A stretch of 64,000 bases of DNA from an uncultured Candidatus Saccharibacteria bacterium (GCA_964567265.1 CAZMLK010000002.1:138813-202812); one strand, 5' to 3'; positions 10,844 through 51,069 are shown, numbered from the stretch's first letter. Made by a program: numbers and translations. The notes: generated by a model not told the origin, from the letters alone.

Positions 10844-11410
10844 CTATCGAATCCCGCTGTCACACGAGATATGCGCCTCGGTCGCTTGTCCTGCGGTGAC
10901 GGTTATCATCACATCCATGCAACTCGGAAGCACTTCAGCAGCTATGGGGTGGAGCGTGTATGCGCCTGGGGCGAGCGATACCATGAACCTGCCGGACTTG
11001 TCGCTTTTCACGGTCCCTGCGAGTACCATCGACTCCTGCCGATATATCTCAATTGTGGTGGAGTACGGCCGCGGCGCGCAGCCTGGCTCCGGCGGCACCC
11101 TCTCGACAGGGCATGTCGGCGAGACATCGACAAGACCGGTCACATCGCCCTTGGCGACGGTGCTGCCGATGCGGCCGGTAGTGCCTGCGGAGGTGCCAGG
11201 GCACTCAGCAAAGCTGCAGTTCGGGCCCGTGCGTCCAACGGAGCTTCCATCGGGGCATATCTTCGCATCAGCATCGCAGACCTGGCCGCCGATTACGTCC
11301 GGTCCGGGTGCCATCGCGTGACGGACGCTCGCACCATAGAGGGCGAAGATGCCGACACAGAAGAGAAGGAGTCCCGATACGATGATGCCGAATAAATGCT
11401 TGTGGTTCAT
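10844..11410 (-). CDS. Membrane-anchored secreted protein with 4-Cys module and Ig/carboxypeptidase-regulatory-like C-terminal domain
   Basis: 188 aa; N-terminal TM; C-x6-C-x12-C-x4-C motif VCDADAKICPDGSSVGRTGPNCSFAECPG; C-terminal KSDKSGRFMVSLAPGAYTL beta-sandwich-like pattern. Confidence 0.6.
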   Translation of the reverse strand: MNHKHLFGIIVSGLLLFCVGIFALYGASVRHAMAPGPDVIGGQVCDADAKICPDGSSVGRTGPNCSFAECPGTSAGTTGRIGSTVAKGDVTGLVDVSPTCPVERVPPEPGCAPRPYSTTIEIYRQESMVLAGTVKSDKSGRFMVSLAPGAYTLHPIAAEVLPSCMDVMITVTAGQATEAHISCDSGIR

Positions 11411-11682
11411 TGGATTTCGATTGATCCTTCAACGGCGGCGCCAGCTCCCGGACACTCAGCAAAGCTGCAGTTCGGGCCCGTGCGGCTTACATAACTTCCA
11501 TCCGGGCACTGCTTCGCGTCCTGTGTACAGATCTGACCGCCCGTGAATTCCTCGGGACCATTTCCTATCCCGCGATTTACCTTTGCCGCATAGAGCGCGA
11601 GGACGCCGACCCCGAAGAGAAGGAGGCCGACCACGATCATGATAAAGAGTGAATGAGGCTTCATGCGGGTCATACGATTCAA
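11407..11682 (-). CDS. Small membrane-anchored protein with the same 4-Cys module
   Basis: 91 aa; TM then ICTQDAKQCPDGSYVSRTGPNCSFAECPG; 32-nt DNA identity with downstream paralog; 4-nt overlap with next gene. Confidence 0.55.
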   Translation of the reverse strand: MNRMTRMKPHSLFIMIVVGLLLFGVGVLALYAAKVNRGIGNGPEEFTGGQICTQDAKQCPDGSYVSRTGPNCSFAECPGAGAAVEGSIEIQ

Positions 11683-13985: not shown

Positions 13986-14624
13986 CTAATCAAGCAATTT
14001 GAAGCTTTTCCAGATCCGATCAAGATCTGCCATCGGAATTCCGCGTGTCGTTATGCGGTAAAAATATCCTTTCCAAATGAAAAGTGTTGTGCGCTCCTCA
14101 TCTTGCTCAGCCACGGTATGTACGGGATCTTTGGACATGTCGAACTTCCTCGTCAACGCAGGAACGCCAGAAACGGTCGTCTGCCCGATAAGATAATTTT
14201 CTTCATTGCCAACCCAGTGGTGGTATTCATCCGACAGTGATCCAGTCGCTGCTTGGGAGTTTACGGTAAGGATCCTCTCCTTCCCGGTCATATCATTTGC
14301 AATGAGCGCATAGGATGTATATTGATTCGGGTCGCCTTCGCCTACTAACATGCCGGAGGGGCGAAATTCCATATCGGAAGGCGCGTCAACGGAAAAGTGA
14401 AGAAAGTCATTTTTGTAGCGAACCCATTCACTAGAGAGCTGGGTGGATGACCCAGTGAATGATGTCGGAAGTTCATCTGCGCGTAATGTCCGACTTCCTT
14501 GCATACTCACACTCTGTGGAGCCTTACCAGAGTTCATTTTTGCAGCGAAATAAATAATACCCCCTGCGATAACGAGGGCCCCGAGAAAAATAAATGTAGC
14601 GACGCTGAGGTTTGATTTTTTCAT
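13986..14624 (-). CDS. Hypothetical signal-anchored secreted protein (AT-rich gene)
   Basis: 212 aa; N-terminal TM VATFIFLGALVIAGGIIYF; visibly lower GC than flanking genes. Confidence 0.5.
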   Translation of the reverse strand: MKKSNLSVATFIFLGALVIAGGIIYFAAKMNSGKAPQSVSMQGSRTLRADELPTSFTGSSTQLSSEWVRYKNDFLHFSVDAPSDMEFRPSGMLVGEGDPNQYTSYALIANDMTGKERILTVNSQAATGSLSDEYHHWVGNEENYLIGQTTVSGVPALTRKFDMSKDPVHTVAEQDEERTTLFIWKGYFYRITTRGIPMADLDRIWKSFKLLD

Positions 14625-14692: not shown

Positions 14693-15553
14693 TTAATGCA
14701 ATTCGACATGTCCAAATGGTGATTTTTCCACTCTAACGCAAGGCAATGTCTGGGCAATTTCGTTGATCGTTTCCAATTGCGCTTGGCTCTTGGATGGGGG
14801 CCATGCTCCCTCAATCGACAATGCCCATTCACCCACATCCTCCAAAACATAAGTGTAAGTCACTATTTTTGCACCTCGTTTCTCGTGGATGATGATGGTT
14901 TGCGTCGTAACCTCTTTGATGGAGTCAACCAACTGCTGAACGACCTCACTGCGTGCATCTGGTGGAATTTCAAAAATAATGCTTGGCGCGTCAGCAGTTG
15001 TTGCTCGGTCGTAGTAGGAAGTCACTACTGCAATATTCCTTGAGTCAATTTTCTTACTGGTGATTGATTTCCAGATTGCAATAATTATTCCGTCTCGCAC
15101 TATTTCCCACATTGCTGAATCTATATCAGCTTGAATGTGAGCAATGGCCCAGTCTTTTATAGGAATGAGTATTGTTATGGCGTGGGAAGCGAAGTCCACC
15201 AGACCTATCATTTCTGCGCTCACCCCTCCTCCATATCCATGGGTATGCCAATTTAGCTCGTATTGATACTTCCCATCTATGTGTTCTTTGGCATGCTCAA
15301 CAGCCGCATCATCCACAATTGTCACCTCCAACCCCGTTTGTTTTGAGGTCAATTCAGAGACTAAGGGTGTAAGTAGGGAGTTCTCGATTTTTATGCGAAG
15401 TTTCAAGTCCCCGTTGCCAATAATGTTCTGGGCCGATTCTCTTGCCGCCTCAAGTTCTGCGTAATATTTTTGTGAAAAATCAAACACTCTAGCAGATTTT
15501 CGCTGTTCTAGGATACGGAGTAAAAAATTTTCGAGTTGTTCAAAAATTCGCAT
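14693..15553 (-). CDS. Hypothetical cytoplasmic protein (AT-rich gene)
   Basis: 286 aa, no TM, no motif recognised; visibly lower GC and weak GC3 bias. Confidence 0.5.
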   Translation of the reverse strand: MRIFEQLENFLLRILEQRKSARVFDFSQKYYAELEAARESAQNIIGNGDLKLRIKIENSLLTPLVSELTSKQTGLEVTIVDDAAVEHAKEHIDGKYQYELNWHTHGYGGGVSAEMIGLVDFASHAITILIPIKDWAIAHIQADIDSAMWEIVRDGIIIAIWKSITSKKIDSRNIAVVTSYYDRATTADAPSIIFEIPPDARSEVVQQLVDSIKEVTTQTIIIHEKRGAKIVTYTYVLEDVGEWALSIEGAWPPSKSQAQLETINEIAQTLPCVRVEKSPFGHVELH

Positions 15554-17295: not shown

Positions 17296-18285
17296 CTATT
17301 CACCGGCATGCTCACCCTCATTGCTCTCCCTAGTCGTCGTCGCGGTCGGAGCTTTTTTCTTCGGTTCGAACGTTTTGAGGAGTCGGACGGCAGCTTCGAG
17401 CTCGCTCTGCGCTGTCTTCAGGTTCCCCTTGATGCTCTCGACAAGGTCGCGCACCTTCGAGAACTCGCCTTCAGGATCATCGGATGCAATCACGGTGGCG
17501 AAAGTCGTCTTGATGTTCCCGATGCTCGACTGTGCTGCCGCAAGCGCTGCGCGGGCAGTGATGACATGGGACTTCGCTTCCCCGACATCCTTGCCGTCGG
17601 CTTCAAGCTTCGCGATCCGTGAATCGATACGGTCTGCGATCTTGAGGAGGCGGCCGTACGCGACATCGAGGCGCGCGGCGACATGGCTCACTTCATCGGC
17701 AACCTTCGCCTTTATGCGCTCCCTTGTCGACGACGCGATCTTCTGCCACATCTCCTGGCGCTTCTCGCGAAGCTCATCGAGCGGTCCGCCGTTCCCCTTC
17801 ATCTGGCCAGGGAATACTGCTGGCCGCGTGCCGGTCGCCATGCCCGGCTTGGTCGTTGAGGCCATGCGCATGCGCATCTCCTTCTCGCGCATTTCCATCA
17901 TATTTGAAGCCGTCGTTGATGCTTGGATCTTCTTCAACATCTCTGGGGTCGGCTTCTGGAGCGGACGATTCGTCGTTGACCCTTCTGATCCCCTTGCCGG
18001 CGGCATCGGAGGCGGGGGTACGTCGCCCTCAACATGGTCTCCGCCAGTCCGTGCTCCCGTCGGAGGCTTCGCGGTGGCCGCTCCCGGACACTTCGCGAAT
18101 TCGCAGTGCGGGCCGGTGCGTCCGACGGCGCTGCCGTCTGGACACATCTTCGCTTCCGCGGTACAGATTACGCCGGCACTCGCGTCGGCGTCCGCCGTCT
18201 CGTCAGCAAGCGCGAACGATACGCCGAACAAAAAAACAAATCCAATGGACAGGAAAGTACTGCCCAGTACGCGCATTCTCGTCAT
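17296..18285 (-). CDS. Secreted protein with 4-Cys module and C-terminal coiled coil
   Basis: 329 aa; signal/anchor; ICTAEAKMCPDGSAVGRTGPHCEFAKCPG (third copy of the module); helical C-terminal half. Confidence 0.55.
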   Translation of the reverse strand: MTRMRVLGSTFLSIGFVFLFGVSFALADETADADASAGVICTAEAKMCPDGSAVGRTGPHCEFAKCPGAATAKPPTGARTGGDHVEGDVPPPPMPPARGSEGSTTNRPLQKPTPEMLKKIQASTTASNMMEMREKEMRMRMASTTKPGMATGTRPAVFPGQMKGNGGPLDELREKRQEMWQKIASSTRERIKAKVADEVSHVAARLDVAYGRLLKIADRIDSRIAKLEADGKDVGEAKSHVITARAALAAAQSSIGNIKTTFATVIASDDPEGEFSKVRDLVESIKGNLKTAQSELEAAVRLLKTFEPKKKAPTATTTRESNEGEHAGE

Positions 18286-20393: not shown

Positions 20394-22145
20394 GTGTACG
20401 TTAATACAGAACAACTGAAGGAGTTTGTCCTCGATTCGGGCCTGGTGTCCCGGAAAGACTTTGAGGCTGCGGAAAAGGCGGCTGAAGAGAAGGGGGTGAC
20501 GGTCGAGCAGGCGCTCATGAATGCGGGCAAGGCGAGCGAGGACGACATCCGCCGTGTCCAAGCCTACGTGCTCGGGATCCCGTTCATCAACCTCAAGAAG
20601 CAGAAGATCGATTTCGATATCCTCTCCCTGATCCCCGAGCCGATCGCCCGGAAGCACAACATCGTCGCCTTCAAGAAGGCGGAAGGGGCGCTCGAGGTCG
20701 CGATGCTCGACATCGACAACCTCCAGGCGATCGAGTTCGTGAAGAAGAAGGTGGGTCTCAAGATCTTGCCACGCCTCACCGACGCGGATTCCATCAAGGA
20801 ACTCCTCCTGCAGTACCAGAAGACACTCAAGGACGAATTCGGCGACCTCATCAAGAAAGAATCTGCAACACTCGACGTGCTGCCGGAAGGGGAGGACGCG
20901 TCCGTCTCCGAGAAGGACCTCAAGAAGATCGCGGAGGACCTGCCGGTGGTGCGCATCGTGAATTCGCTCCTCAAGCATGCGATCATCCAGGACGCATCCG
21001 ACATCCACATCGAGCCCATGGAGAACGAGGTGCTGGTGCGGTACCGCATCGACGGCCTCCTCCATGACGCGATGACGCTTCCGAAGAACGCAGGCGCGTC
21101 GATCACCGCGCGCATCAAGGTGCTTTCGAACCTGAAATTGGATGAGAAGCGCCTCCCGCAGGACGGCCGCTTCAAGATGCGCATCGACAACGACAAGGTG
21201 TCATTCCGCGTCTCGATCCTCCCGACGTATTTCGGCGAGAAGACCGTGATGCGCCTCCTTCGCGAGTCGGGCGGCGGCTTCACACTCGAAAGTCTCGGCT
21301 TCCACGGCGAAGGACTGGAACGCATCCATGCAGCGACCAAGCTCGCCACCGGCATGATCCTCACGACCGGACCGACCGGAAGCGGCAAGACGACGACGCT
21401 CTATACCGTGCTTGATATCTTGAATACGCCGGATGTGAACATTTCTACTATCGAGGACCCGATCGAGTACCAGATGGCGCGTGTCAACCAGACGCAGGTC
21501 AAGCCGGAGATCGGATTCACGTTCACGAACGGCCTCCGCTCGCTGGTGCGCCAGGACCCGGACATCATCATGGTGGGAGAAATTCGCGACGGAGAGACGG
21601 CGTCGCTCGCCATCAATGCGTCTTTGACCGGCCACTTGGTGCTTTCGACGCTCCACACCAACAGCGCTACGGGAACCATGCCGCGCCTCATCGACATGGG
21701 CTGCGAGCCGTTCCTGATCGTTTCCACCTTGAATGTGGTCATTGGCCAGCGCCTCGTGCGCAAGCTGACCGGGGGGAAGGAGGAATACAATCTCTCGTCC
21801 GCGGAAATCAAATCATTGTCCGAGCATGCCGATCTCGACCTAGTCTTGAAGACATTGAAGGATGAGAGCATCGTCCCCAAGAACGCCACCTTCGACAAGA
21901 TCCCGTTCTACAGGCCGGTCGCCTCTCCCGAAGCAGGGGATGGCTACAAGGGTCGTATCGGCATCCACGAGGTGTTCAAGATGACGCCGACCATCCGCGA
22001 GATGGTGATGCAGGGAAAGACCGCGGCTGATATCGAGGTGCAGGCGAAGAAAGAAGGTATGCTCACGATGCTCGAGGACGGCATCTTCAAGGCTGTCGAG
22101 GGCGTGACGACGATCGAGGAGGTCTTGCGCGTCGTCAGCGAATAA
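20394..22145 (+). CDS. pilB: Type IV pilus / type II secretion assembly ATPase (PilB/GspE family)
   Basis: 583 aa; GTG start; N-terminal GSPII domain; Walker A GPTGSGKTTT, Asp box, Walker B IIMVGEIRD, His box TGHLVLSTLHTN. Confidence 0.9.
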   Translation: MYVNTEQLKEFVLDSGLVSRKDFEAAEKAAEEKGVTVEQALMNAGKASEDDIRRVQAYVLGIPFINLKKQKIDFDILSLIPEPIARKHNIVAFKKAEGALEVAMLDIDNLQAIEFVKKKVGLKILPRLTDADSIKELLLQYQKTLKDEFGDLIKKESATLDVLPEGEDASVSEKDLKKIAEDLPVVRIVNSLLKHAIIQDASDIHIEPMENEVLVRYRIDGLLHDAMTLPKNAGASITARIKVLSNLKLDEKRLPQDGRFKMRIDNDKVSFRVSILPTYFGEKTVMRLLRESGGGFTLESLGFHGEGLERIHAATKLATGMILTTGPTGSGKTTTLYTVLDILNTPDVNISTIEDPIEYQMARVNQTQVKPEIGFTFTNGLRSLVRQDPDIIMVGEIRDGETASLAINASLTGHLVLSTLHTNSATGTMPRLIDMGCEPFLIVSTLNVVIGQRLVRKLTGGKEEYNLSSAEIKSLSEHADLDLVLKTLKDESIVPKNATFDKIPFYRPVASPEAGDGYKGRIGIHEVFKMTPTIREMVMQGKTAADIEVQAKKEGMLTMLEDGIFKAVEGVTTIEEVLRVVSE

Positions 22146-22292
22146 CTCACCATACTAAAAAGATTCGCCGCGGGCCCCTTTGGGGCCCGCGGCGTTTCGC
22201 TACGATACAGGTTCTTCCATATCGAACTCTATCTGGCGCACGGGGATACTAGTGCCCGGTATTCGCTCGCAAGCAGCGAAGAAGTCGCGATT

Positions 22293-22325
22293 ATCCGCAT
22301 TTCTCGCGTAGCGAGAAATGCGGAT
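22293..22325. repeat. Perfect 15-bp inverted repeat directly upstream of pilC
   Basis: ATCCGCATTTCTCGC-GTA-GCGAGAAATGCGGAT, 21 nt before the pilC ATG; not followed by a T-run. Confidence 0.6.
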
Positions 22326-22346
22326 TGCTCTTACAATTGAAATGCA

Positions 22347-23567
22347 ATGGCGATCTTTACGTACAAGGCGACGAACAAGGAAGGGGAAGAGTATGAAGGG
22401 ACCGCGACCGTCGCCGACCGATTCGAGCTCTACTCGCATATCCAGAAGGAAGGCGGCACGATCATTTCCTATGCCGAGGGTAGTGCGGGCGGCGGTTTCA
22501 CGCTCGATGCGCTCATTAGCAAGATTTTCGGCCGCGTGAAGGAAACGGACAAGATCGTTCTTACAAGGAATCTCTCCGCGATGCTTACGGCAGGACTCTC
22601 GCTCACGCGCGCGATGGCCGTGATGAACCGCCAGACCAAGAACAAGAAGCTCAAAACCATCCTTGGGATGGTCGAGGGCTCGATCGAGAAGGGCGGCACC
22701 TTCCATGAGGCGCTGATCCCGTACCCGAACGTATTCAGTCCGCTCATGGTCGCCATGGTGAAGGCGGGCGAGGAAGGCGGCCGCCTCGCGGAATCGCTCT
22801 CGACGATCTCGAACCAGCTCGACCGCTCGTACAACCTCAAGAAGAAGATCCGCGGCGCGCTCATCTATCCCTCGATCGTCATCTTCGCGCTCGTGGTCGT
22901 CGGCATCCTGATGCTCATCTTCATCGTGCCGACCTTGACGAAGACCTTCACCGAGCTCCATGTTGAGCTCCCGGCCAGCACGAAGTTCGTCATCGCGTCG
23001 AGCAATTTCCTCACGCACCATACAGCCACCGCCGTCGCGATCGCCCTCCTCATCGCGGGCGGGGTCTGGATGGCGCTGCGGACCAAGAACGGCCGGCGCA
23101 CGTTCGAGTGGCTCCTTCTCCGCATCCCGATCATCGGCACGCTGGTCCGCGAGACGAATGCCGCCCGCACTGCGCGCACGCTCTCCTCGCTGCTTTCGTC
23201 GGGCGTCGAGATCGTCCGCTCGCTCGAGATCACCGTCGAGGTGGTGCAGAACTCGTACTACAAGGAAGTGATCGTCGAGGCGGGGGAGCGCATCCAGAAA
23301 GGACTCCCGCTCTTCGAGGTGTTCAACAAGTACGAGTCGTTGTACCCGCCCTTGGTCGCGGAACTGATCGCGGTCGGCGAGGAGACTGGAAAGCTCCCGG
23401 ACATGCTGCTCCAGATCGCGGATTTCTACGAGCGCGAAGTCGAGCAGAAGACGAAGGATATGTCGACCATCATCGAGCCGTTCCTCATGATCATCGTGGG
23501 CTCGGTCGTCGGCTTCTTCGCGGTCTCGATGATCACGCCGATCTACTCCATCACGGAGAATATTTAA
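22347..23567 (+). CDS. pilC: Type IV pilus platform protein (PilC/GspF family)
   Basis: 406 aa; duplicated GspF domains, three TM segments, LSRAMAVM / LSSLLSSG repeats. Confidence 0.9.
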   Translation: MAIFTYKATNKEGEEYEGTATVADRFELYSHIQKEGGTIISYAEGSAGGGFTLDALISKIFGRVKETDKIVLTRNLSAMLTAGLSLTRAMAVMNRQTKNKKLKTILGMVEGSIEKGGTFHEALIPYPNVFSPLMVAMVKAGEEGGRLAESLSTISNQLDRSYNLKKKIRGALIYPSIVIFALVVVGILMLIFIVPTLTKTFTELHVELPASTKFVIASSNFLTHHTATAVAIALLIAGGVWMALRTKNGRRTFEWLLLRIPIIGTLVRETNAARTARTLSSLLSSGVEIVRSLEITVEVVQNSYYKEVIVEAGERIQKGLPLFEVFNKYESLYPPLVAELIAVGEETGKLPDMLLQIADFYEREVEQKTKDMSTIIEPFLMIIVGSVVGFFAVSMITPIYSITENI

Positions 23568-23596
23568 TGCAGGCGTAATCCTGGCATTCTGCCGCA

Positions 23597-25357
23597 ATGA
23601 CTTTTCGCACCACACATTCGGCCGCGCGCGGCTTCTCACTCATCGATACCATCATCGGCATCGCGCTCATGACCATCGTCTTCTTCGCGCTCTTCGGCGC
23701 GTTCCGCTTCAGCTTGATCCTACTCGGCATCGCGAAGGCAAAGATCAGCGCGATCGCGCTCGCGAACGAGCAGATGGAATACATCCGCTCCATCGATTAC
23801 GACTCGGTCGGTACCGTGTCCGGCATCCCGGCAGGCGCGATCCCTCAGATAGAGAATTTCACCTACAACAATATCGCCTACACGCGGCGCGTGCTGGTGC
23901 AGTACGAGGATGCGCCGCAGGACGGGCTCGGCGCCGCCGACTCGAACAGTCTCACCGCCGACTACAAGCGCATCAAGGTCACGGTCTCGTGGACGGCGCG
24001 CGGCCGCGCGTTCGAGTACTCGCTCATCTCGACCATGGTGCCGCGCGGCGTCGAGAGCGTCGCGGGCGGCGGTACGCTCCGCATTTATGCGCTCTCAGCG
24101 CTCGGCGCGCCGCTCGATGATGCGACCGTACGAATCCAGAACCCGTCAACAACGCCCGCGATCGACGTCACGGTGAATACGAACAGCGCCGGCAAGGTCG
24201 AATTTCCGGGCGGCACGCCGGCCGCGAGCGGCTACCAGATCACCGTCTCGAAGAGCGGATACAGCACGGCGAAGACGTATTCGGTCACGGCCGCGAACCC
24301 GAGCCCAAGCCCTGGCCATCTCACGGTGGTCGCCGGCGGCACCACGAGCTCGACCTTCTCGATCGATCAGACGGCGACGAATACCATCCGCACCTTCATC
24401 CCGCTCCAGGCAGGCAGCTTCTCGGATTCGTTCCCGAACAGCGCGCAGACATCGCTCCTCGCCTCGACGACGGTTGCGGGAGGCGAGGTGGATCTCGTGA
24501 TTGATCCAGATACCAGCGATTATGCGCCGCAGGGGGAGGTGCGCTCGACGACTGTGAATCCGTCATACCTGTACTCGTGGGAATCGTTCTCCTGGACCGA
24601 CGACCGGCCAGCGGGCACGGATATCCGTTATCGCGTGTACTACGATACCGGTTCTGGATACGCGCTCGTGCCGGATAGCGCCCTGCCGGGAAATGCGCTC
24701 GGCGCGACGACTTCACCGATTGTGCTCACGACGCTTGCAACGACCACCTATCCGCGCCTCCGGCTCTCGGCAACACTTGCGGCCTCTGTGGGATCAACTA
24801 CGCCGAGCGTCCATGACTGGGATCTCTCATACAAAGGCGGCCCGACGCCGCTTCCGAATATCGCATTCACGCTCCAGGGTGCGAAGACTATCGGCACCAA
24901 TGGCGTCGGCACGCCTATATATAAGTACTCGCAGAGCCTGAATACGGGCGCGAGCTCCGTGGTTGCGGTTCCCGGCCTCGAGTGGGACAACTACACCATC
25001 ACGCTTTCAGGCGGCACCTATGACATCGCGGAATCCTGCAAGCCGCAGCCGGTCGGCGTGACGCCCGGGAGCATGATCACGACTGATCTCACACTTGCGG
25101 CGCATACCACGAACTCGCTCCTGGTCGCGGTCCGTGACAATGCCGGCGCACTCGCTTCTGGCGCGACGGTGCGCCTCTATGGCGGCGCGACCGACATCAC
25201 GAAGACAAGTTCCGAATGCGGGCAGGCCTTCTTCAGCAGCCTCTCTTCAAGCCTTCCGTACACGCTCGAGGTGTCGAAGTCTGGCTTCCAGACGACCACC
25301 ATCACGCCGGTCAATGTGGGCGGGAACCAGAGTATGAGCGCGACCATCAATCCGTAA
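23597..25357 (+). CDS. Large prepilin-type N-terminal domain protein with carboxypeptidase-regulatory-like repeats
   Basis: 586 aa; class III signal-like RG/FSLIDTIIGIALMTIVFF (Asp instead of Glu at +5); two segments TVRIQN...VSKSGYSTAKT and TVRLYG...VSKSGFQTTTI resemble CarboxypepD_reg folds. Confidence 0.65.
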   Translation: MTFRTTHSAARGFSLIDTIIGIALMTIVFFALFGAFRFSLILLGIAKAKISAIALANEQMEYIRSIDYDSVGTVSGIPAGAIPQIENFTYNNIAYTRRVLVQYEDAPQDGLGAADSNSLTADYKRIKVTVSWTARGRAFEYSLISTMVPRGVESVAGGGTLRIYALSALGAPLDDATVRIQNPSTTPAIDVTVNTNSAGKVEFPGGTPAASGYQITVSKSGYSTAKTYSVTAANPSPSPGHLTVVAGGTTSSTFSIDQTATNTIRTFIPLQAGSFSDSFPNSAQTSLLASTTVAGGEVDLVIDPDTSDYAPQGEVRSTTVNPSYLYSWESFSWTDDRPAGTDIRYRVYYDTGSGYALVPDSALPGNALGATTSPIVLTTLATTTYPRLRLSATLAASVGSTTPSVHDWDLSYKGGPTPLPNIAFTLQGAKTIGTNGVGTPIYKYSQSLNTGASSVVAVPGLEWDNYTITLSGGTYDIAESCKPQPVGVTPGSMITTDLTLAAHTTNSLLVAVRDNAGALASGATVRLYGGATDITKTSSECGQAFFSSLSSSLPYTLEVSKSGFQTTTITPVNVGGNQSMSATINP

Positions 25358-25364
25358 GAGCGAT

Positions 25365-25988
25365 ATGAACCCTTTTTTCAAACATGAGGATACCGGCGGG
25401 GTGCGCGGCATGACGCTCATCGAGATGCTCGTCGTGATCGCGGTCGGTACCGCCGCGTCTCTCGTCCTCAGCGCGAACATCATCTATCTCTACAAGATCA
25501 ACCAGATCAGCTACGAGCAGGGCTTCGCCCTCGAGAGCGCGCGCCGCGGCATCGAGCTTTTGGTGCGCGATATCCGCGAGGCGACCTATTCCGACGACGG
25601 CTCGTTCCCGATCGTCGCCATGAGCCCGTACTCCTTGATCGTCTACAGCGACACCGACCGCGATTCGAGCGTCGAGCGCATACGCTATTTCATTTCAGGA
25701 ACCAACCTGAAGCGCGGTATTGTAGATGCGACGGGCACGCCGCTCACGTATCCGACTGCAAATGAGAAGGTGACGCTCGTTTCCGACTACGTGCGCAATT
25801 CCGAGCAGAGCATTCCTTCGTTCACGTACTACAACGCGGCAGGGGCGGAGATCACCGATTTCACCGATGTCTCCGACGTGACCTTCGTGAAAGTGAATCT
25901 CATCGTCAACATCAGCCCGACGCACCTGCCTGACGAATTCCTACTCCGCTCGAGCGCGGCGGTGAGAAACCTTCGCCCAAACCCTTAA
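25365..25988 (+). CDS. Prepilin-type minor pilin/pseudopilin
   Basis: 207 aa; canonical G/MTLIEMLVVIAVG prepilin cleavage-methylation motif. Confidence 0.7.
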   Translation: MNPFFKHEDTGGVRGMTLIEMLVVIAVGTAASLVLSANIIYLYKINQISYEQGFALESARRGIELLVRDIREATYSDDGSFPIVAMSPYSLIVYSDTDRDSSVERIRYFISGTNLKRGIVDATGTPLTYPTANEKVTLVSDYVRNSEQSIPSFTYYNAAGAEITDFTDVSDVTFVKVNLIVNISPTHLPDEFLLRSSAAVRNLRPNP

Positions 25989-25993
25989 CAGGT

Positions 25994-27421
25994 ATGCACT
26001 TCTTCCCAAAAGCAGGACGCGAGAAGGGGAGTCTCATCCTCCTCACCTTGGTATTCGCGGGCATCTTCACCATGATCGTCGCGTCCTTGGCATCATTCCT
26101 CATCGTCCAGCAGAAGGTGGAGCGCGGGAAGGAAGCGCGCGAGCAGGCGATCCAGATCGCAGAAGGCGGGCTCGACTATTACAAATGGTTCCTCGCGCAT
26201 TACCCGAACGACCTCAAGGACGGCACAGGCGTCGCAGGACCGTATGTTCACGACTATACCGATCCGGAGGGCGGCTCGATCGGCAAGTTCTCGCTCTCGG
26301 TGTCAGGAAATTCTCAGTGCGGGTCGGTCGCGTCTATCGACATCACTTCGACCGGCTGGACCAATGACCGGGCCGAGCTGAAGCGTACGGTCTACGGACG
26401 CTATGCGCGGCCATCAGTCGCGGAATTCTCACATATATTGAACAGCAGTGTCTGGGCCGGAAGCGACCGTGAGATCTACGGGCCCTACCACTCGAACGGC
26501 GGCATCCGCATGGATGGCACCAACTATTCGAAGGTCACGAGCGCCGTCTCGACCTGGTCGTGCACCGCGAGCTTCGGCTGCTCGCCGACGGCGACCAAGA
26601 ACGGCGTATTCGGGAGCGGGCCGAACGCGAGCCTTTGGCAGTTCCCGGTCGCGCCGGTCGATTTCAACGGGCTCACGGTGGACCTGGTCGCGATGAAGAA
26701 TCTCGCGCAGACCCAGGGCGGCGTCTATTATCCGCCGGCAGGAAAGGGATATCACATCATCTTCAACGCGAATGGCACCATGACGGTGTACCGCGTGAAT
26801 AACACTTCCACGGTCTGGAGCTATTCCACTGAGGATGGGTGGGTACAAGACCCGCAGATCATCACGAACCAGACAAATCTCGGGACCATTGCCGTTCCGG
26901 CGAACTGCAAGGTCATCTTCGTCGAGGACAATCTGTGGCTTGAAGGGATCGTTTCTGGGAAAGTTGCGATCGCTGCCGCGAACGTGATCAACGCGACCAT
27001 CTCGCCGCGCATCCTCCTTTCGGGAAATATCACGTACGTGACCGGCGGCACGACGGATGGCCTTACCGCGATCGCCGAGGATTCCGTGTTGATCCCGCTC
27101 CAATCGCCGACGAACATGGAGCTCCACGGCGTATTCATTGCCCAGAATGGACGGTTCGCGCGCGACCACTATGTGACCTCGGGTACCAACCAAGTGCCGA
27201 GCGCCTACGATTCCTACGTGCAGCAGAATGACCTCATCATGTACGGCACCATCGTCTCGAATGGCCGCGTCGGGACCCAGTGGACCTGCGGCGGCACCTT
27301 CTGCTCCGGCTATGCGAACCGTGAGAATTACTACGACCGCAATCTCGCGACCTCGCCGCCGCCCCTTACCCCGCACACGAGCGAGGACTACCGGTTTATC
27401 GAGTGGCGGGAGAATGACTAA
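25994..27421 (+). CDS. Pilus-associated protein with N-terminal hydrophobic helix (PilX-like position)
   Basis: 475 aa; KGSLILLTLVFAGIFTMIVASLASF anchor; last gene of pilus cluster; no other motif recognised. Confidence 0.5.
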   Translation: MHFFPKAGREKGSLILLTLVFAGIFTMIVASLASFLIVQQKVERGKEAREQAIQIAEGGLDYYKWFLAHYPNDLKDGTGVAGPYVHDYTDPEGGSIGKFSLSVSGNSQCGSVASIDITSTGWTNDRAELKRTVYGRYARPSVAEFSHILNSSVWAGSDREIYGPYHSNGGIRMDGTNYSKVTSAVSTWSCTASFGCSPTATKNGVFGSGPNASLWQFPVAPVDFNGLTVDLVAMKNLAQTQGGVYYPPAGKGYHIIFNANGTMTVYRVNNTSTVWSYSTEDGWVQDPQIITNQTNLGTIAVPANCKVIFVEDNLWLEGIVSGKVAIAAANVINATISPRILLSGNITYVTGGTTDGLTAIAEDSVLIPLQSPTNMELHGVFIAQNGRFARDHYVTSGTNQVPSAYDSYVQQNDLIMYGTIVSNGRVGTQWTCGGTFCSGYANRENYYDRNLATSPPPLTPHTSEDYRFIEWREND

Positions 27422-35404: not shown

Positions 35405-35470
35405 GAAAGCAACGCAGGAATGCACACGCCGCCGGGCATACTTGCCCGGCGGCTTTGTATAATGATTCCC

Positions 35471-36925
35471 ATGTTTCTCTATCCACTCATCGGTGGATTC
35501 GCAACAGGCGTCCTCCTCCGGTCCTTCCTCGTGATCGGGCTTCCGGGAGTCGGTTTCGGTGCCGTGATCGCGGCTGCACTCCTCGCGCTCGGTTTCCGCC
35601 GGGGCGAGCGATCGCTCACCCTCGCGGCGATTGTCTGTTTCGGTATCGTGCTCGGCATCTGCCGCTACACGCTTGCAGAGGATGCGCTCCCGTACGCGCT
35701 CGTCGATTCTCTTGGCGAAGGGCGCATGGTCGGGGCGGGCGTCATTGTCGCCGACCCGGATCTCCGCGAAGGGAACACCAAGCTCACCATCGATCTCGAT
35801 ACCATGAACAGCGCGACGACGACGCTCCGCATCCTCGCAACCGTGGATCGTTTCCCTCGCTTTGCATACGGGGATCGTGTGCAGTTGAATGGCATCCTCA
35901 AAAAACCCACAGCATTTTCCGGCGACACGGAGCGCGTCTTCGATTATCCCGCATGGCTCAAGAAAGATGGCATTGTCGCCGTCATGTCATATCCGCGCAT
36001 CGAACGCATCGAGGACGGAGGAGGCAACATCATTTTTCGATACCTGTTCCGCATCAAGCACGCCTTCCTCTCGAATATCGAGGAGCGCATTCCGGAACCG
36101 GAATCGGGACTCCTCGCGGGGCTCTTGGTTGGCTCGAAGCAGTCCTTGGGGAAGGAGCTCCAGGATACGTTCCGCGTCGCGGGTGTCATCCATATCGTCG
36201 TCCTCTCAGGCTACAACGTGACCATTGTCGCGGAAGCCATCATGCGGGCGCTCGCATTCCTGCCGCGCATGCTCTCCTATGCCGCAGGAGGGGTAAGTAT
36301 CATCCTCTTCGCGATCATGGCGGGCGGCTCGGCGACGGTGGTCCGTGCGAGCATCATGGCGGTCCTTGTCCTCATCGCGCGTGCGACGGGACGCACCAAT
36401 GATCTCCTTCGCGCGCTCCTTGTGACCGGCTTCGTGATGCTGATCCACAACCCCTTCATCTTGGCGTTCGATCCCTCGTTCCAACTCTCGTTCCTCGCGA
36501 CCTTCGGCCTCATATTGATCGCCCCGAAGCTTGAGACGCGGGTCACGTGGATTCCGGCAAGATTCGGCATTCGCGAGATTGTCGTCGCGACGCTCTCGAC
36601 GCAGCTCATCGTCTTGCCGCTCCTCCTCTGGATGACCGGTATCTTCTCGGTCGTCGCGCTTCCGGCGAACCTCCTTATCCTCGGCGCGGTGCCGCCCGCG
36701 ATGCTGTTCGGCTTCCTCGCCGGAATGCTCGGGTTCGTGAGTACCTGGCTCGCGCTCCCGTTTGCGCTCATCGCGGATGCGATCCTCCGTTACCAGCTTT
36801 TCGTCGTCCACGTGCTTGCTGGGCTTCCGTTCGCGGCCTTCACGCTCCCTGCCTTTCCGTTCTCAGTATCGCTGGTTGCGTACGTGCTCTTGGCGCTCGT
36901 CTATGTGCGCGTGTCGAAAAAATAA
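35471..36925 (+). CDS. comEC: ComEC/Rec2 DNA internalisation channel protein (DUF4131 + competence domains, no MBL domain)
   Basis: Start at MFLYPLIGG (TATAAT ends 7 nt upstream); OB-like N-domain; competence-domain block GLLAGLLVGSKQSL...FRVAGVIHIVVLSGYNV; many TM helices. Confidence 0.8.
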   Translation: MFLYPLIGGFATGVLLRSFLVIGLPGVGFGAVIAAALLALGFRRGERSLTLAAIVCFGIVLGICRYTLAEDALPYALVDSLGEGRMVGAGVIVADPDLREGNTKLTIDLDTMNSATTTLRILATVDRFPRFAYGDRVQLNGILKKPTAFSGDTERVFDYPAWLKKDGIVAVMSYPRIERIEDGGGNIIFRYLFRIKHAFLSNIEERIPEPESGLLAGLLVGSKQSLGKELQDTFRVAGVIHIVVLSGYNVTIVAEAIMRALAFLPRMLSYAAGGVSIILFAIMAGGSATVVRASIMAVLVLIARATGRTNDLLRALLVTGFVMLIHNPFILAFDPSFQLSFLATFGLILIAPKLETRVTWIPARFGIREIVVATLSTQLIVLPLLLWMTGIFSVVALPANLLILGAVPPAMLFGFLAGMLGFVSTWLALPFALIADAILRYQLFVVHVLAGLPFAAFTLPAFPFSVSLVAYVLLALVYVRVSKK

Positions 36926-38191: not shown

Positions 38192-39049
38192 ATGACATTC
38201 TCTCCGCTCCGGATTCGGATCGGCACACTCGCGCTCCTCGCCGGCGTGACCATTTTCATCTGGTACCTCGCGCTCCAGGCGACGTCCTCTCAGCTCACGG
38301 TCGCATTCCTCGATATCGGACAAGGAGATGCGATTTATATCGAGGGGCCGAACGGGAATCAGATTCTCATCGACGGCGGTGCGGACACCAAGGTGCTTGC
38401 CCGCCTCGGGGAGGTGATGCCGCTCGGCGACCGCTCGATCGATGTCGTCATCGGGACGCATCCAGACAAGGATCATATCGGCGGACTGCCTGACGTCTTG
38501 AAACGCTACGATGTTTCCTATGTATTCGAGCCCGGCATGGCGAATGATACGGCCGCATGGGACGCGTTCCTTCAGGCGATCGCGGACGAACACGCCGGGC
38601 ACATCATCGCGCGCCGGGGAATGGAGATCGATCTCGGACAGGGTGTCATGCTTTCGATATTGTTCCCGGACAAGCAGATCGCCGGCAAGGAGACGAACGC
38701 GGCTTCGATCGTCGCGAAGCTCTCGTATGGCGCCGTCGGCGTGATGCTGACTGGCGATGCGCCGCAGTCAGTCGAAGATCATCTTGTTACCTTGGATGGC
38801 GGGAATCTGAAAAGCGACATCCTCAAGGCAGGGCACCATGGATCGAAAACCTCAAGCGCTCCGCAGTTTCTCGATGCGGTCCGCCCGGCGTACGGGATCA
38901 TTTCCGCAGGGAAGGGAAATTCCTATGGCCATCCGCACAAGGAGGTCGTGAGCGCGCTCACGGAACGGAATGTGCGCACTCTGAGCACCATCGACAGGGG
39001 GACCATCATCTTTACTTCGGATGGGACGGCCGTCGCCTTACAGGAGTAG
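38192..39049 (+). CDS. Membrane-anchored MBL-fold hydrolase, ComEC C-terminal-domain-like
   Basis: 285 aa; N-terminal TM; FLDIGQGDAIYIE, GTHPDKDHIGG, GHHGS, typical of the ComEC beta-lactamase-like nuclease domain. Confidence 0.8.
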   Translation: MTFSPLRIRIGTLALLAGVTIFIWYLALQATSSQLTVAFLDIGQGDAIYIEGPNGNQILIDGGADTKVLARLGEVMPLGDRSIDVVIGTHPDKDHIGGLPDVLKRYDVSYVFEPGMANDTAAWDAFLQAIADEHAGHIIARRGMEIDLGQGVMLSILFPDKQIAGKETNAASIVAKLSYGAVGVMLTGDAPQSVEDHLVTLDGGNLKSDILKAGHHGSKTSSAPQFLDAVRPAYGIISAGKGNSYGHPHKEVVSALTERNVRTLSTIDRGTIIFTSDGTAVALQE

Positions 39050-50433: not shown

Positions 50434-51069
50434 ATGACTAGGTCCACAGAGGAATCACTTGAAATCATCTCAAACCAATTTGTCGTGAAGCGTCGGTTTA
50501 CCACGGGTACATTCAACCTTATATTGGGTGCGGTACTAGGCGCCACTTTGACTTTTTTAGTAGGAGCTATTAATTCTTACATCTCCAACCAAACCTTACG
50601 TCAAGCGGTTGCAAAGAGCATCTACATTGAAATTGAGCATAATAAAATTTTTTTAAATAGCTCTGTATCTGATTTAAACAGCGCAGTTTTAGATTGGAAA
50701 GGCAACAAAGGAAATAAATTAAATATGCAAGTATTCGCCCTGCATAGAGAAGACTTCTACCAAATTTATCTCCAAGATTTAACTCTATTAGATAAAAACA
50801 CTCTAGATGAAACCTACGAATTTTACGGAAGACTTAGGACCATTGATTACCTAACAAAATTAATCACTGATGATTTTGATCTCTATTACAGAAATGAAAA
50901 TCTAATTTCTAGAGCTGATATCTTGTCCCGACTAATGGAATTACAGCAGGATGTGGATGAGGCGCTTCGGAATGCTGACAAAATCCAAAGAGATTTAATT
51001 ACTAAATATGATGTTAACAGTGTTCAGAGTTCCTGTAATCCAACCAATTGTCTAACAAACTCTTGGTAA
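50434..51069 (+). CDS. Hypothetical single-TM protein, strongly AT-rich gene (cassette 5)
   Basis: 211 aa; TM FNLILGAVLGATLTFLVGAI then Asn/Leu/Asp-rich helical region; composition clearly unlike flanking genes. Confidence 0.45.
   Translation: MTRSTEESLEIISNQFVVKRRFTTGTFNLILGAVLGATLTFLVGAINSYISNQTLRQAVAKSIYIEIEHNKIFLNSSVSDLNSAVLDWKGNKGNKLNMQVFALHREDFYQIYLQDLTLLDKNTLDETYEFYGRLRTIDYLTKLITDDFDLYYRNENLISRADILSRLMELQQDVDEALRNADKIQRDLITKYDVNSVQSSCNPTNCLTNSW

What the first reader, a model, noticed from the sequence alone, without database searches (positions are those of the whole stretch)
20394..27421. Compact type IV pilus module with a 586-aa pilin-like protein carrying tandem beta-sandwich repeats
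pilB and pilC are followed by three proteins with prepilin-like N-termini. No short major pilin, prepilin peptidase, pilM/N/O or pilT is present in the window.

The first pilin-like protein is very large. It has Asp rather than Glu at position +5 of the processed helix (G/FSLID) and contains two carboxypeptidase-regulatory-like segments, so it could be a tip adhesin.

Together with comEC, the MBL protein, recJ, rnhA, rarA and hup in the same 40 kb, this fits a DNA-uptake or attachment apparatus as proposed for episymbiotic small-genome bacteria.
Basis: partly seen in the sequence, partly recalled or inferred. Interest (0 to 1): 0.5.

Follow-up and report, generated by a model that had tools for sequence, protein, structure and literature searches.

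The report
Conserved type IV pilus tip-complex operon
This is a five-gene operon, conserved across a whole class of tiny symbiotic bacteria, that encodes the motor and platform of a type IV pilus plus three unusually large pilin-like proteins that most likely form the pilus tip, one of which resembles the DNA-binding tip protein ComZ of Thermus.

Summary
Window 20394-27421 (+) encodes PilB/GspE (583 aa), PilC/GspF (406 aa) and three proteins whose only hydrophobic segment is N-terminal (586, 207 and 475 aa). No other pilin motif, PilD, PilT or PilM/N/O was found in the 64 kb.

The order nusA | pilB-pilC-586-207-475 | tpiA-pgk is kept in all 80 related Patescibacteria (Paceibacteria-type) genome loci fetched. 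It is therefore a lineage-wide core operon.

The three pilins fit the GspI/J/K (PilV/W/X) tip-complex pattern:
- The 586-aa protein is an I-class pilin module plus four beta-sandwich domains. Gly-1 is invariant and +5 is Asp in 66 of 75 relatives, Glu in 9.
- The 207-aa protein has a canonical G|xTxxE prepilin motif.

Whether the ligand is DNA or a host surface is unresolved.

This is a new variant of a known kind, of moderate interest.

The parts
20394..22145 (+). pilB/gspE-type assembly ATPase (583 aa, GTG start) with an N-terminal MshEN domain. Walker A is GPTGSGKT. It has a single Cys, so the tetracysteine Zn motif is absent.
   Evidence: PF00437 E=2.8e-121 and PF05157 E=1.9e-13. TIGR02538 PilB 529 bits and GspE 517 bits, both below their equivalog cut-offs. 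Cys count. Median 66% identity across 72 related loci.
22146..22346 (+). pilB-pilC spacer of 201 nt with two strong hairpins: a 13-bp all-GC stem at 22166-22194 and a 15-bp perfect palindrome at 22291-22323.
   Evidence: Spacer length is very variable in relatives (median 140 nt, sometimes with an inserted gene). Function not tested.
22347..23567 (+). pilC/gspF-type inner-membrane platform protein (406 aa).
   Evidence: PF00482, two stretches, E=1.6e-59. GspF 317 bits and PilC 287 bits, both below cut-off.
23597..23632 (+). Class III (prepilin) leader of the 586-aa protein: MTFRTTHSAARG, with cleavage predicted after Gly12.
   Evidence: Read from the sequence. Gly-1 is 75/75 in relatives; +5 is D in 66 and E in 9.
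23633..24046 (+). Pilin module of the 586-aa protein (residues 13-150): alpha-1 helix and a 4-stranded sheet, of the GspI/PilV/ComGE class.
   Evidence: AF2 model: helix 15-64, strands 85-147. Sub-threshold NCBIfam hits in family members: ComGE 10/15, PilV 4/15 (best 5.7e-6), GspI 4/15, XpsI 3/15. N_methyl in 7/21 members.
24071..25348 (+). Four all-beta (sandwich) domains of the 586-aa protein: residues 159-255 (CarboxypepD_reg/SpaA-like), 260-414, 423-502 and 507-584 (CarboxypepD_reg).
   Evidence: AF2 mean pLDDT 86, above 90 over most of this part. PF13620 in 21/21 members, SpaA in 15/21, Big_1 in 12/21. Foldseek finds tandem Ig/CnaB-type arrays: TIE protein E=3e-13, BcpA, RrgB. No LPXTG motif.
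25365..25988 (+). 207-aa pilin with a canonical prepilin motif (GVRG|MTLIE). Probably the GspJ/PilW/ComGF-class minor pilin.
   Evidence: TIGR02532 above cut-off; gspJ E=0.0021. +5 is E in 76/76 relatives. N_methyl in 18/20 members. gspJ in 11/20 and ComGF in 12/20, but also ComGE in 12/20. Start lies 7 nt after the 586-aa stop; median gap in relatives is -4 nt. No structure was predicted.
25994..27421 (+). 475-aa ComZ-like tip pilin. Leader ends ..EKG|S and there is no acidic +5 residue. GspK-like pilin domain at residues 13-138 (26030-26407), inserted beta-solenoid-containing region at residues 139-460 (26408-27373), and a last strand at 467-471 (27392-27406).
26414..26668 (+). Most conserved segment of the 475-aa family (residues 141-225, including ..VWAG.DR.I.G.YHSNGGIRMDG.. 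and two invariant Cys). It is poorly modelled and is a candidate ligand or active site.
   Evidence: Block conservation 0.73-0.80 and invariant residues in 75 sequences. pLDDT is about 50 here.

Best explanation
The five genes are the conserved core of a type IV filament machine of a Patescibacteria (Paceibacteria-type) bacterium.

Proposed mechanism:
1. PilB, the ATPase, drives the PilC platform.
2. The three downstream proteins are minor pilins, made in a fixed ratio from tightly packed genes.
3. A prepilin peptidase encoded elsewhere cleaves them after the conserved Gly.
4. Their N-terminal helices bundle into a GspI-J-K / PilV-W-X-type cap. This cap primes polymerisation of a short major pilin, also encoded elsewhere, and ends up at the pilus tip.
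5. The 475-aa protein is the K-type cap subunit. It needs no acidic +5 residue because no subunit sits above it. It carries a ComZ-like beta-solenoid in line with the fibre axis.
6. The 586-aa I-type subunit adds a roughly 430-residue stalk of four beta-sandwich domains.
7. Together these form the binding device of the pilus.

My best guess for the ligand is a generic, conserved one: extracellular DNA handed on to ComEC, about 0.35-0.4. A lineage-specific host receptor is the alternative.

Shown: gene identities, motifs, synteny and fold similarities.
Inferred: processing, complex formation, tip location and ligand.
For: Gene identities:
- PilB and PilC are identified by Pfam.

Conservation of the operon:
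- The operon order is invariant in 80 genomes.
- The pilin genes are tightly packed, with median gaps of -4 and +1 nt.

Class III motifs under selection:
- 586 family: Gly-1 75/75 and acidic +5 75/75.
- 207 family: E5 76/76.
- 475 family: hydrophobic +5, as in GspK.

Class hints that agree with the I-J-K gene order:
- 586 N-terminal module hits ComGE, PilV and GspI.
- 207 family hits gspJ and ComGF.
- 475 family hits PilX_N, GspK and ComGG.

Structure:
- The 586-aa model has a pilin helix and sheet plus four beta domains, pLDDT 86.
- ComZ is a GspK-like pilin with an inserted solenoid resembling an ice-binding protein. It binds DNA and the GspI-like PilA2, and is argued to sit at the tip (PMC6561018).

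Argument for a conserved ligand or machine-internal role:
- The three proteins are as conserved across the 80 genomes (48, 44 and 42% identity) as PilC (50%), pgk (48%) and tpiA (41%).

Precedent and lineage context:
- In Saccharibacteria, PilV/W/X minor pilins with large accessory domains are proposed tip proteins, and the PilX proteins lack predicted PilD sites (PMC11623550).
- PilD, PilM/N/O and short pilins exist elsewhere in Paceibacterales MAGs (PMC10936435 supplement).
- Short major-type pilins were seen in a few related loci.
Against: - No PilD, major pilin, PilM/N/O or PilT is in the window or within 10 kb of the cluster in any of the 80 relatives. The rest of this genome could not be read.
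- The I and J class assignments rest on sub-threshold, partly promiscuous HMM hits. The 207 family also hits ComGE, GspG and ComGC. No structure was predicted for the 207-aa protein.
- Residues 150-225 of the 475-aa model have low confidence.
- All three proteins are acidic, with pI about 5, so DNA binding is not suggested by charge. ComZ also lacks obvious positive patches.
- In Saccharibacteria, T4P are essential while comEC is dispensable, so pili there have a role other than DNA uptake (PMC10633639).
Confidence: 0.65

Rival explanations
1. Host-attachment pilus. The same machine and tip complex, but the solenoid and the beta-sandwich stalk bind a surface molecule such as a glycan or protein of the host cell, as for the lectin-like PilX minor pilins of Saccharibacteria. 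DNA uptake is incidental.
For: - Saccharibacterial T4P mediate host binding and are essential independently of comEC.
- Ig/CnaB-like tandem domains are typical of adhesin stalks.
- Ice-binding-protein-like solenoids occur in adhesins.
- All three proteins are acidic.
Against: Host-specific receptors usually diverge fast. These three proteins are as conserved as glycolytic enzymes across 80 diverse genomes, which presumably have different hosts. The closest solved structure is a DNA receptor.
Confidence: 0.35
2. Self-contained filament. The 207-aa protein, with its canonical G|xTLIE motif, is the major subunit. The operon then needs only a peptidase to build a fibre capped by the two large proteins.
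For: - It is the only canonical pilin in the operon, with E5 in 76/76 relatives.
- Some members hit GspG and ComGC models.
- No short pilin lies near the operon in most genomes.
Against: - Its position between an I-like and a K-like gene, its size and its gspJ/ComGF hits fit a J-class minor pilin.
- Short pilins of 150-170 aa with the classical GFTLIELLVVIAI helix exist in related genomes and next to PilD in a Paceibacterales MAG.
Confidence: 0.12
3. Type II-secretion-like pseudopilus. GspE, GspF and a GspI-J-K cap act as a piston to export proteins rather than as an external pilus.
For: GspE and GspF score about as well as PilB and PilC. The minor pilins resemble T2SS pseudopilins. The literature often annotates these genes as T2SS.
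Against: - No GspC, D, L or M and no secretin is present in the window or the flanks.
- Patescibacteria are thought to lack an outer membrane (background knowledge).
- Bulky tip modules of roughly 320 and 430 residues make sense on an exposed tip.
- Pili are seen on Patescibacteria (CPR) cells.
Confidence: 0.06
4. Not pilus proteins. The large proteins are membrane-anchored surface or S-layer proteins, or sortase-type pilins, that merely share a hydrophobic N-terminus.
For: The top Foldseek hits of the 586-aa model are sortase-assembled pilins and the TIE protein. NCBI names relatives only 'carboxypeptidase-like regulatory domain-containing protein'.
Against: - There is no LPXTG motif or C-terminal anchor.
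- Gly-1 is invariant and the +5 residue is always acidic.
- Family members hit N_methyl, PilV and GspI models.
- The genes are always linked to pilB-pilC.
- The 475-aa model has a GspK-like domain.
Confidence: 0.03

Closest known systems
ComZ/PilA2 competence-pilus tip receptor of Thermus thermophilus (PDB 6QVI, 6QVF; PMC6561018)
   Same: [quoted passage not shown]
- The bulk of the insertion lies after the fourth strand, with one strand returning at the C-terminus.
- There is no Glu5.
- It is encoded beside I- and J-like minor pilins.
   Different: - No detectable sequence similarity.
- Only 222 residues superpose.
- A highly conserved 85-residue segment (141-225) has no confident model.
- The partner I-like pilin here carries four extra domains (586 aa, against about 170 aa for PilA2).
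- The host probably has no outer membrane or secretin.
- DNA binding is untested.
GspI-GspJ-GspK / PilV-PilW-PilX (FimU-PilVWXE) / ComGE-GF-GG minor-pilin priming and tip complexes
   Same: - Three adjacent genes in I-J-K order.
- The K-type member lacks the acidic +5 residue and carries an inserted domain.
- Family members give sub-threshold hits to the matching models.
   Different: - No H-type (GspH/FimU/ComGD) fourth member and no PilY1.
- Two of the three subunits are 2-5 times larger than their counterparts.
- The I-type member has Asp rather than Glu at +5 in 88% of relatives.
- None reaches a curated family cut-off.
Modular type IV pilins (S. sanguinis PilB and PilC; CofB; Raynaud et al. 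2021, PMC8179133)
   Same: A pilin module is followed by grafted functional modules, predicted to be exposed at the tip. CPR examples were already listed in that survey.
   Different: There are four tandem beta-sandwich modules, two of them CarboxypepD_reg-like, rather than a vWA or lectin module. The ligand is unknown.
Saccharibacteria T4P-1 and T4P-2 with PilV/PilW/PilX minor pilins (TM7x; PMC11623550)
   Same: It is a Patescibacterial T4P with the machinery split over several loci. Large PilX-type minor pilins lacking predicted PilD sites are proposed as tip proteins.
   Different: The accessory domains differ: jelly-roll and beta-propeller there, beta-solenoid and a beta-sandwich array here. 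The operon make-up differs: there pilM/N/O, pilT and pilD are linked, here only pilB and pilC. It is a different class of Patescibacteria.

Membership tests
Type IV filament superfamily (T4P/T2SS/Com) assembly core | GspE/PilB-family ATPase with Walker A/B, Asp and His boxes | tested here: met
   PF00437 E=2.8e-121. GPTGSGKT, DPDIIMVGEIRD and GHLVLSTLHTN are read in the translation.
Type IV filament superfamily (T4P/T2SS/Com) assembly core | GspF/PilC polytopic platform protein with two T2SSF repeats | tested here: met
   PF00482, two stretches, E=1.6e-59.
Type IV filament superfamily (T4P/T2SS/Com) assembly core | Subunits with a class III signal peptide: short basic leader, Gly-1, hydrophobic helix, acidic +5 | tested here: met
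   Met by the 586-aa (G|FSLID) and 207-aa (G|MTLIE) proteins. Conserved in 75 and 76 relatives. TIGR02532 is above cut-off for the 207-aa protein.
Type IV filament superfamily (T4P/T2SS/Com) assembly core | Prepilin peptidase (Peptidase A24) in the genome | not testable with these tools
   Absent from the window and from the +/-10 kb flanks of 80 relatives. It is present in other Paceibacterales MAGs.
Type IV filament superfamily (T4P/T2SS/Com) assembly core | A short major pilin that forms the fibre | tested here: not met
   None in the 64-kb window. Found only in a few related loci: L041, L042 and L067. It may lie elsewhere in the genome.
PilB (type IVa) versus GspE versus ComGA equivalogs | Score above the NCBIfam equivalog cut-off | tested here: not met
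   PilB 529 against a cut-off of 675.65; GspE 517 against 630.25; ComGA 247.5 against 300. The subtype cannot be assigned.
GspI/J/K-type minor-pilin tip complex | Adjacent genes for I-, J- and K-class pilins, with the K class lacking Glu5 and carrying an inserted domain | tested here: inconclusive
   The order, the +5 pattern and the K-like fold are met. The I and J classes are supported only by sub-threshold hits. There is no structure for the 207-aa protein.
GspI/J/K-type minor-pilin tip complex | The three subunits form a heterotrimer through their N-terminal helices and globular domains | not testable with these tools
   No multimer prediction or experiment is available.
ComZ-like tip pilin | GspK-like pilin domain plus a beta-solenoid of the ice-binding-protein type in one chain | tested here: met
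ComZ-like tip pilin | Solenoid inserted between the penultimate and last strands of the pilin sheet | tested here: inconclusive
   The secondary-structure order is four strands (84-138), the insertion, then a last strand at 467-471. This fits the description of ComZ. Model coordinates could not be inspected.
ComZ-like tip pilin | Detectable sequence homology to ComZ | tested here: not met
   A profile of 28 family members against PDB sequences gave no ComZ hit at E<=10.
ComZ-like tip pilin | Binds dsDNA and a GspI-like partner pilin | not testable with these tools
   This is a biochemical property. Here the protein has pI about 5.3.
Modular type IV pilin (Raynaud et al. 2021) | N-terminal pilin module followed by one or more domains not specific to T4P | tested here: met
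   For the 586-aa protein: N_methyl in 7/21 and CarboxypepD_reg in 21/21 family members. The AF2 model shows the domain layout.
Sortase-assembled (Gram-positive) pilins | Sec signal peptide, C-terminal LPXTG sorting signal and membrane anchor | tested here: not met
   No LPXTG-like motif and no C-terminal hydrophobic segment. The similarity is to the generic Ig/CnaB fold.
Pam pilus of CPR (donor-strand exchange; bioRxiv 10.64898/2026.03.03.709456) | PamA/PamB-type Ig-like pilins with PamC/D chaperones | tested here: not met
   Only one of 20 members of the 207 family gave a weak hit, E=0.0032. The window proteins gave none. The Pam system is reported in Saccharimonadia and Microgenomatia.

The most novel reading that the evidence does not exclude
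The ComZ-like 475-aa protein, capped onto a 586-aa stalk pilin, is a universal DNA-capture device (or other polymer-capture device) of Paceibacteria pili and feeds ComEC. In that case the operon would be the conserved front end of nucleotide scavenging and natural transformation in this very large, uncultivated group. The nearly invariant but unmodelled segment 141-225 (VWAG..YHSNGGIRMDG..C..C..) would be its ligand-binding site, or even a catalytic site (nuclease or glycanase) displayed at a pilus tip.
Probability: 0.2. Interest if true: 0.65.

Novelty: new variant of a known kind. Interest (0 to 1): 0.42.

Why it matters
Patescibacteria (CPR) cannot make nucleotides and live attached to other cells. 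Pili and ComEC are the usual suspects for both DNA uptake and attachment, but the parts that touch the ligand are known only for a few Saccharibacteria.

This operon gives Paceibacteria-type lineages a concrete set of three candidate tip proteins, conserved across the lineage. Two of them (207 and 475 aa) were named only 'hypothetical protein' in the sources seen, and relatives of the 586-aa protein mostly 'hypothetical' or 'carboxypeptidase-like regulatory domain-containing protein'. One of them resembles the only structurally characterised DNA-binding tip pilin.

That makes the question 'DNA receptor or host adhesin?' testable with recombinant proteins, without cultivating the organism. The unusually slow divergence of these surface proteins also bears on how host-specific these symbionts are.

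Tried and rejected
- Sequence-profile searches of all three families and of the 586-aa N-terminal module against PDB sequences gave only noise or generic N-terminal helix matches to geopilin-type pilins.
- Foldseek on the full 586-aa model returned only generic tandem beta-sandwich proteins (sortase pilins, the TIE protein, usher complexes). It says nothing about the pilin module or the ligand. The sortase-pilin reading was rejected because there is no LPXTG motif.
- PilD and PilT searches found nothing beyond pilB itself in the window or the 80 loci. I used a GxGDxK regex and tblastn with P. aeruginosa PilD and PilT sequences written from memory. The recalled queries may contain errors.
Taxonomy is inferred from homologues named Patescibacteria, Paceibacterota, Kaiserbacteria and Parcubacteria.
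- The Pam pilus was considered after a weak NCBIfam hit and rejected.
- Net charge and pI give no support for DNA binding.
- The profile search of 1.84 billion representatives showed the size of the 475-aa family (1118 clusters). It carries no names, and the listed top 150 are all close relatives, so it could not bridge to ComZ. Named distant members were only 'hypothetical protein', one of them from Kerfeldbacteria.
- Rfam and tRNA scans found nothing in the cluster.
- The third homologue search was not used, because no available query would have located PilD in this genome.

Full report
**What is there**

Window 20394-27421 carries five + strand genes:
- pilB/gspE, 20394-22145, 583 aa.
- pilC/gspF, 22347-23567, 406 aa.
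- Three genes at 23597-25357 (586 aa), 25365-25988 (207 aa) and 25994-27421 (475 aa).

Pfam identifies the first two with high confidence: T2SSE E=2.8e-121 with an MshEN domain, and T2SSF with two stretches, E=1.6e-59. NCBIfam cannot decide between PilB, GspE and ComGA, or between GspF and PilC. All scores are below the equivalog cut-offs.

Each of the three downstream proteins has a single hydrophobic segment, at the N-terminus. Their N-termini are:
- 586 aa: MTFRTTHSAARG|FSLID...
- 207 aa: ...GVRG|MTLIE...
- 475 aa: ...GREKG|SLILLTLVF...

The first two are class III (prepilin) signals. The third keeps the Gly but has no acidic +5 residue.

A six-frame scan finds no other such motif in the 64 kb. 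The 20 further ORFs scanned against Pfam gave no Peptidase_A24, PilT or PilM/N/O hit, and the remaining genes were judged by eye. tblastn with recalled PilD and PilT queries also found nothing beyond pilB.

**Not a one-off**

The 586-aa protein has more than 570 full-length homologues of 565-627 aa among those listed (42-66% identity in the top 120). They come from Patescibacteria (Paceibacterota, Yonathbacteria and others) and are mostly named 'hypothetical' or 'carboxypeptidase-like regulatory domain-containing protein'.

The 475-aa protein has more than 2300 homologues, all 'hypothetical', and 1118 clusters at 50% identity. At least one is from Kerfeldbacteria.

In 80 genome loci the order nusA(-) | pilB pilC 586 207 475 | tpiA pgk is kept without exception, as far as contig ends allow. 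These loci come from Kaiserbacteria, Parcubacteria, Paceibacterota, Nomurabacteria and Campbellbacteria, and include the complete 579-kb genome CP174360.1.

The three pilin genes are tightly packed, with median gaps of -4 and +1 nt. The pilB-pilC spacer is variable and sometimes holds an extra gene.

**The N-terminal motifs are under selection**
- 586 family: Gly-1 in 75/75; +5 is Asp in 66 and Glu in 9.
- 207 family: Glu5 in 76/76.
- 475 family: +5 is hydrophobic (mostly Leu), preceded by a conserved basic-Gly.

This is the pattern of GspI/J (acidic +5) and GspK/PilX (none).

**Structures**

586-aa protein, AF2 model with mean pLDDT 86:
- A 50-residue helix (15-64) and a four-stranded sheet (85-147), which is a pilin module.
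- Four all-beta domains follow: 159-255, 260-414, 423-502 and 507-584.
- Pfam finds CarboxypepD_reg in 21/21 family members, SpaA/prealbumin-like in 15/21 and N_methyl in 7/21.
- Foldseek returns only generic tandem Ig/CnaB arrays such as the TIE protein, BcpA and RrgB.
- There is no LPXTG motif, so it is not a sortase pilin.
- The isolated N-terminal module gives coherent sub-threshold hits to the I-class minor pilins: ComGE 10/15, PilV 4/15 (best 5.7e-6), GspI 4/15, XpsI 3/15.

475-aa protein, AF2 model with pLDDT 79:
- Helix 10-69, four strands at 84-138, a poorly modelled region at 150-225, a beta-rich body at 244-446 and a last strand at 467-471.
- The only significant Foldseek hits in the PDB are the three chains of ComZ of Thermus thermophilus, E=6.5e-8.
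- This is the domain make-up described for ComZ. ComZ is a GspK-like pseudopilin domain with a beta-solenoid resembling an ice-binding protein, inserted before the last strand. It binds dsDNA and the GspI-like PilA2, and is argued to cap the competence pilus (PMC6561018).
- There is no sequence-level link.
- PilX_N is detected in 5/28 family members.

207-aa protein:
- It is a canonical pilin: N_methyl in 18/20 members.
- Its class hints lean toward J (gspJ 11/20, ComGF 12/20) but are promiscuous.

**Interpretation**

The best-supported reading is that the operon encodes the motor and platform of a type IV filament together with an I-J-K-type minor-pilin complex. That complex primes assembly and ends at the tip. 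It carries two bulky binding modules: a ComZ-like solenoid and a four-domain stalk.

The parts missing from the window are encoded elsewhere in this kind of genome:
- A Paceibacterales MAG has PilD next to two short predicted pilins, plus several PilM copies, PilN and PilO. PilT is present in some MAGs and absent in others (PMC10936435 supplement).
- Patescibacteria MAGs generally carry PilB/C/M/O and ComEC/ComFC (PMC8672522).
- In a few related loci, short major-type pilins are visible, for example L041.
- Split T4P loci and large PilX-type tip candidates without predicted PilD sites are documented for Saccharibacteria (PMC11623550).
- Modular pilins are a recognised, widespread design that includes CPR examples (PMC8179133).

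**Ligand**

Two observations favour a generic ligand or a machine-internal role over a host-specific receptor:
- The closest solved structure is a DNA receptor.
- The three exposed proteins are as conserved across the 80 genomes (48, 44 and 42% identity) as PilC (50%), pgk (48%) and tpiA (41%).

Three observations count against DNA:
- All three proteins are acidic.
- The similarity to ComZ is fold-level only.
- In Saccharibacteria, T4P are essential although comEC is dispensable (PMC10633639).

I put DNA capture at about 0.35-0.4, host-surface binding at about 0.35, and the remainder on other roles. The proximity of comEC, recJ and rarA adds little in a small genome.

An intriguing detail is that the most conserved stretch of the 475-aa family is the part AF2 cannot model. 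This is residues 141-225, with many residues invariant in at least 97% of sequences, including Y165, N168, D174, C190 and C196.

**Novelty**

No paper in the searchable library links ComZ to CPR/Patescibacteria. The families have no curated models. The kind of system, a T4P with modular tip pilins, is well known, including in CPR. I therefore rate it a new variant of a known kind, of moderate interest.

**Limits**

- The rest of the genome could not be searched.
- Only two structures could be predicted.
- Model coordinates could not be inspected.
- The class assignments of the first two pilins are sub-threshold.
- All functional statements are inferences.

Noticed in passing
window 22146-22346: The 201-nt pilB-pilC spacer holds two strong hairpins. 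One is a 13-bp all-GC stem (22166-22194). The other is a 15-bp perfect palindrome, ATCCGCATTTCTCGC/GCGAGAAATGCGGAT (22291-22323), just upstream of pilC. They could act as an attenuator, an mRNA-stability element or an operator. Spacer length is highly variable in relatives.
   Followed up: partly
window 20394-22145: PilB has a single cysteine. The tetracysteine Zn-binding motif typical of GspE/PilB ATPases is therefore absent. By eye it is also absent in the L041 orthologue.
   Followed up: partly
window 26414-26668 (residues 141-225 of the 475-aa protein): This is the most conserved segment of the 475-aa family (VWAG.DR.I.G.YHSNGGIRMDG ... C....FGC ... GVFG.G), yet AF2 confidence there is only about 50. 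It is a candidate ligand-binding or catalytic site of unknown nature.
   Followed up: partly
window, - strand, around 11278, 11529 and 18165 (ORFs 10844-11410, 11407-11682, 17296-18285): Three predicted secreted or membrane-anchored proteins share a cysteine motif, C-x6-CPDGS-x-V/S-x-RTGP-x-C-x-FA-x-CP. No Pfam family covers the motif; the one weak Pfam hit lies elsewhere in one of the proteins. It looks like a small disulfide-knot module recurring in this genome.
   Followed up: no
window 13986-14624 (-), 14693-15553 (-), 50434-51069 (+): Three genes of unknown function have much lower G+C (regions at 0.37-0.45, against 0.57 for the window). They may be horizontally acquired. One sits directly upstream of rplC at the head of the ribosomal-protein operon.
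   Followed up: no
window 35420-36925 and 38192-39049: comEC has only the DUF4131 and Competence domains. The metallo-beta-lactamase domain usually fused to ComEC is a separate gene 1.3 kb downstream. An oppositely oriented gene that looks like sodA (by eye, not scanned) lies between them.
   Followed up: partly
L041 1-9900: In one relative a second T4P gene set lies directly upstream of pilB. It comprises a second pilC, three pilins of 147-167 aa, a PilX/ComGG-like ORF and two major-type pilins of 155/156 aa (GFTLLEILLVVAAIAILAGIV). In addition, a 729-aa polytopic membrane protein is inserted between pilB and pilC.
   Followed up: partly
80 related loci (L002-L081): The three surface-exposed pilin-like proteins diverge no faster than glycolytic enzymes in the same genomes. 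Median identity to the window is 48, 44 and 42%, against 48% for pgk, 41% for tpiA and 34% for trigger factor. This is unexpected for adhesins of host-dependent bacteria.
   Followed up: partly
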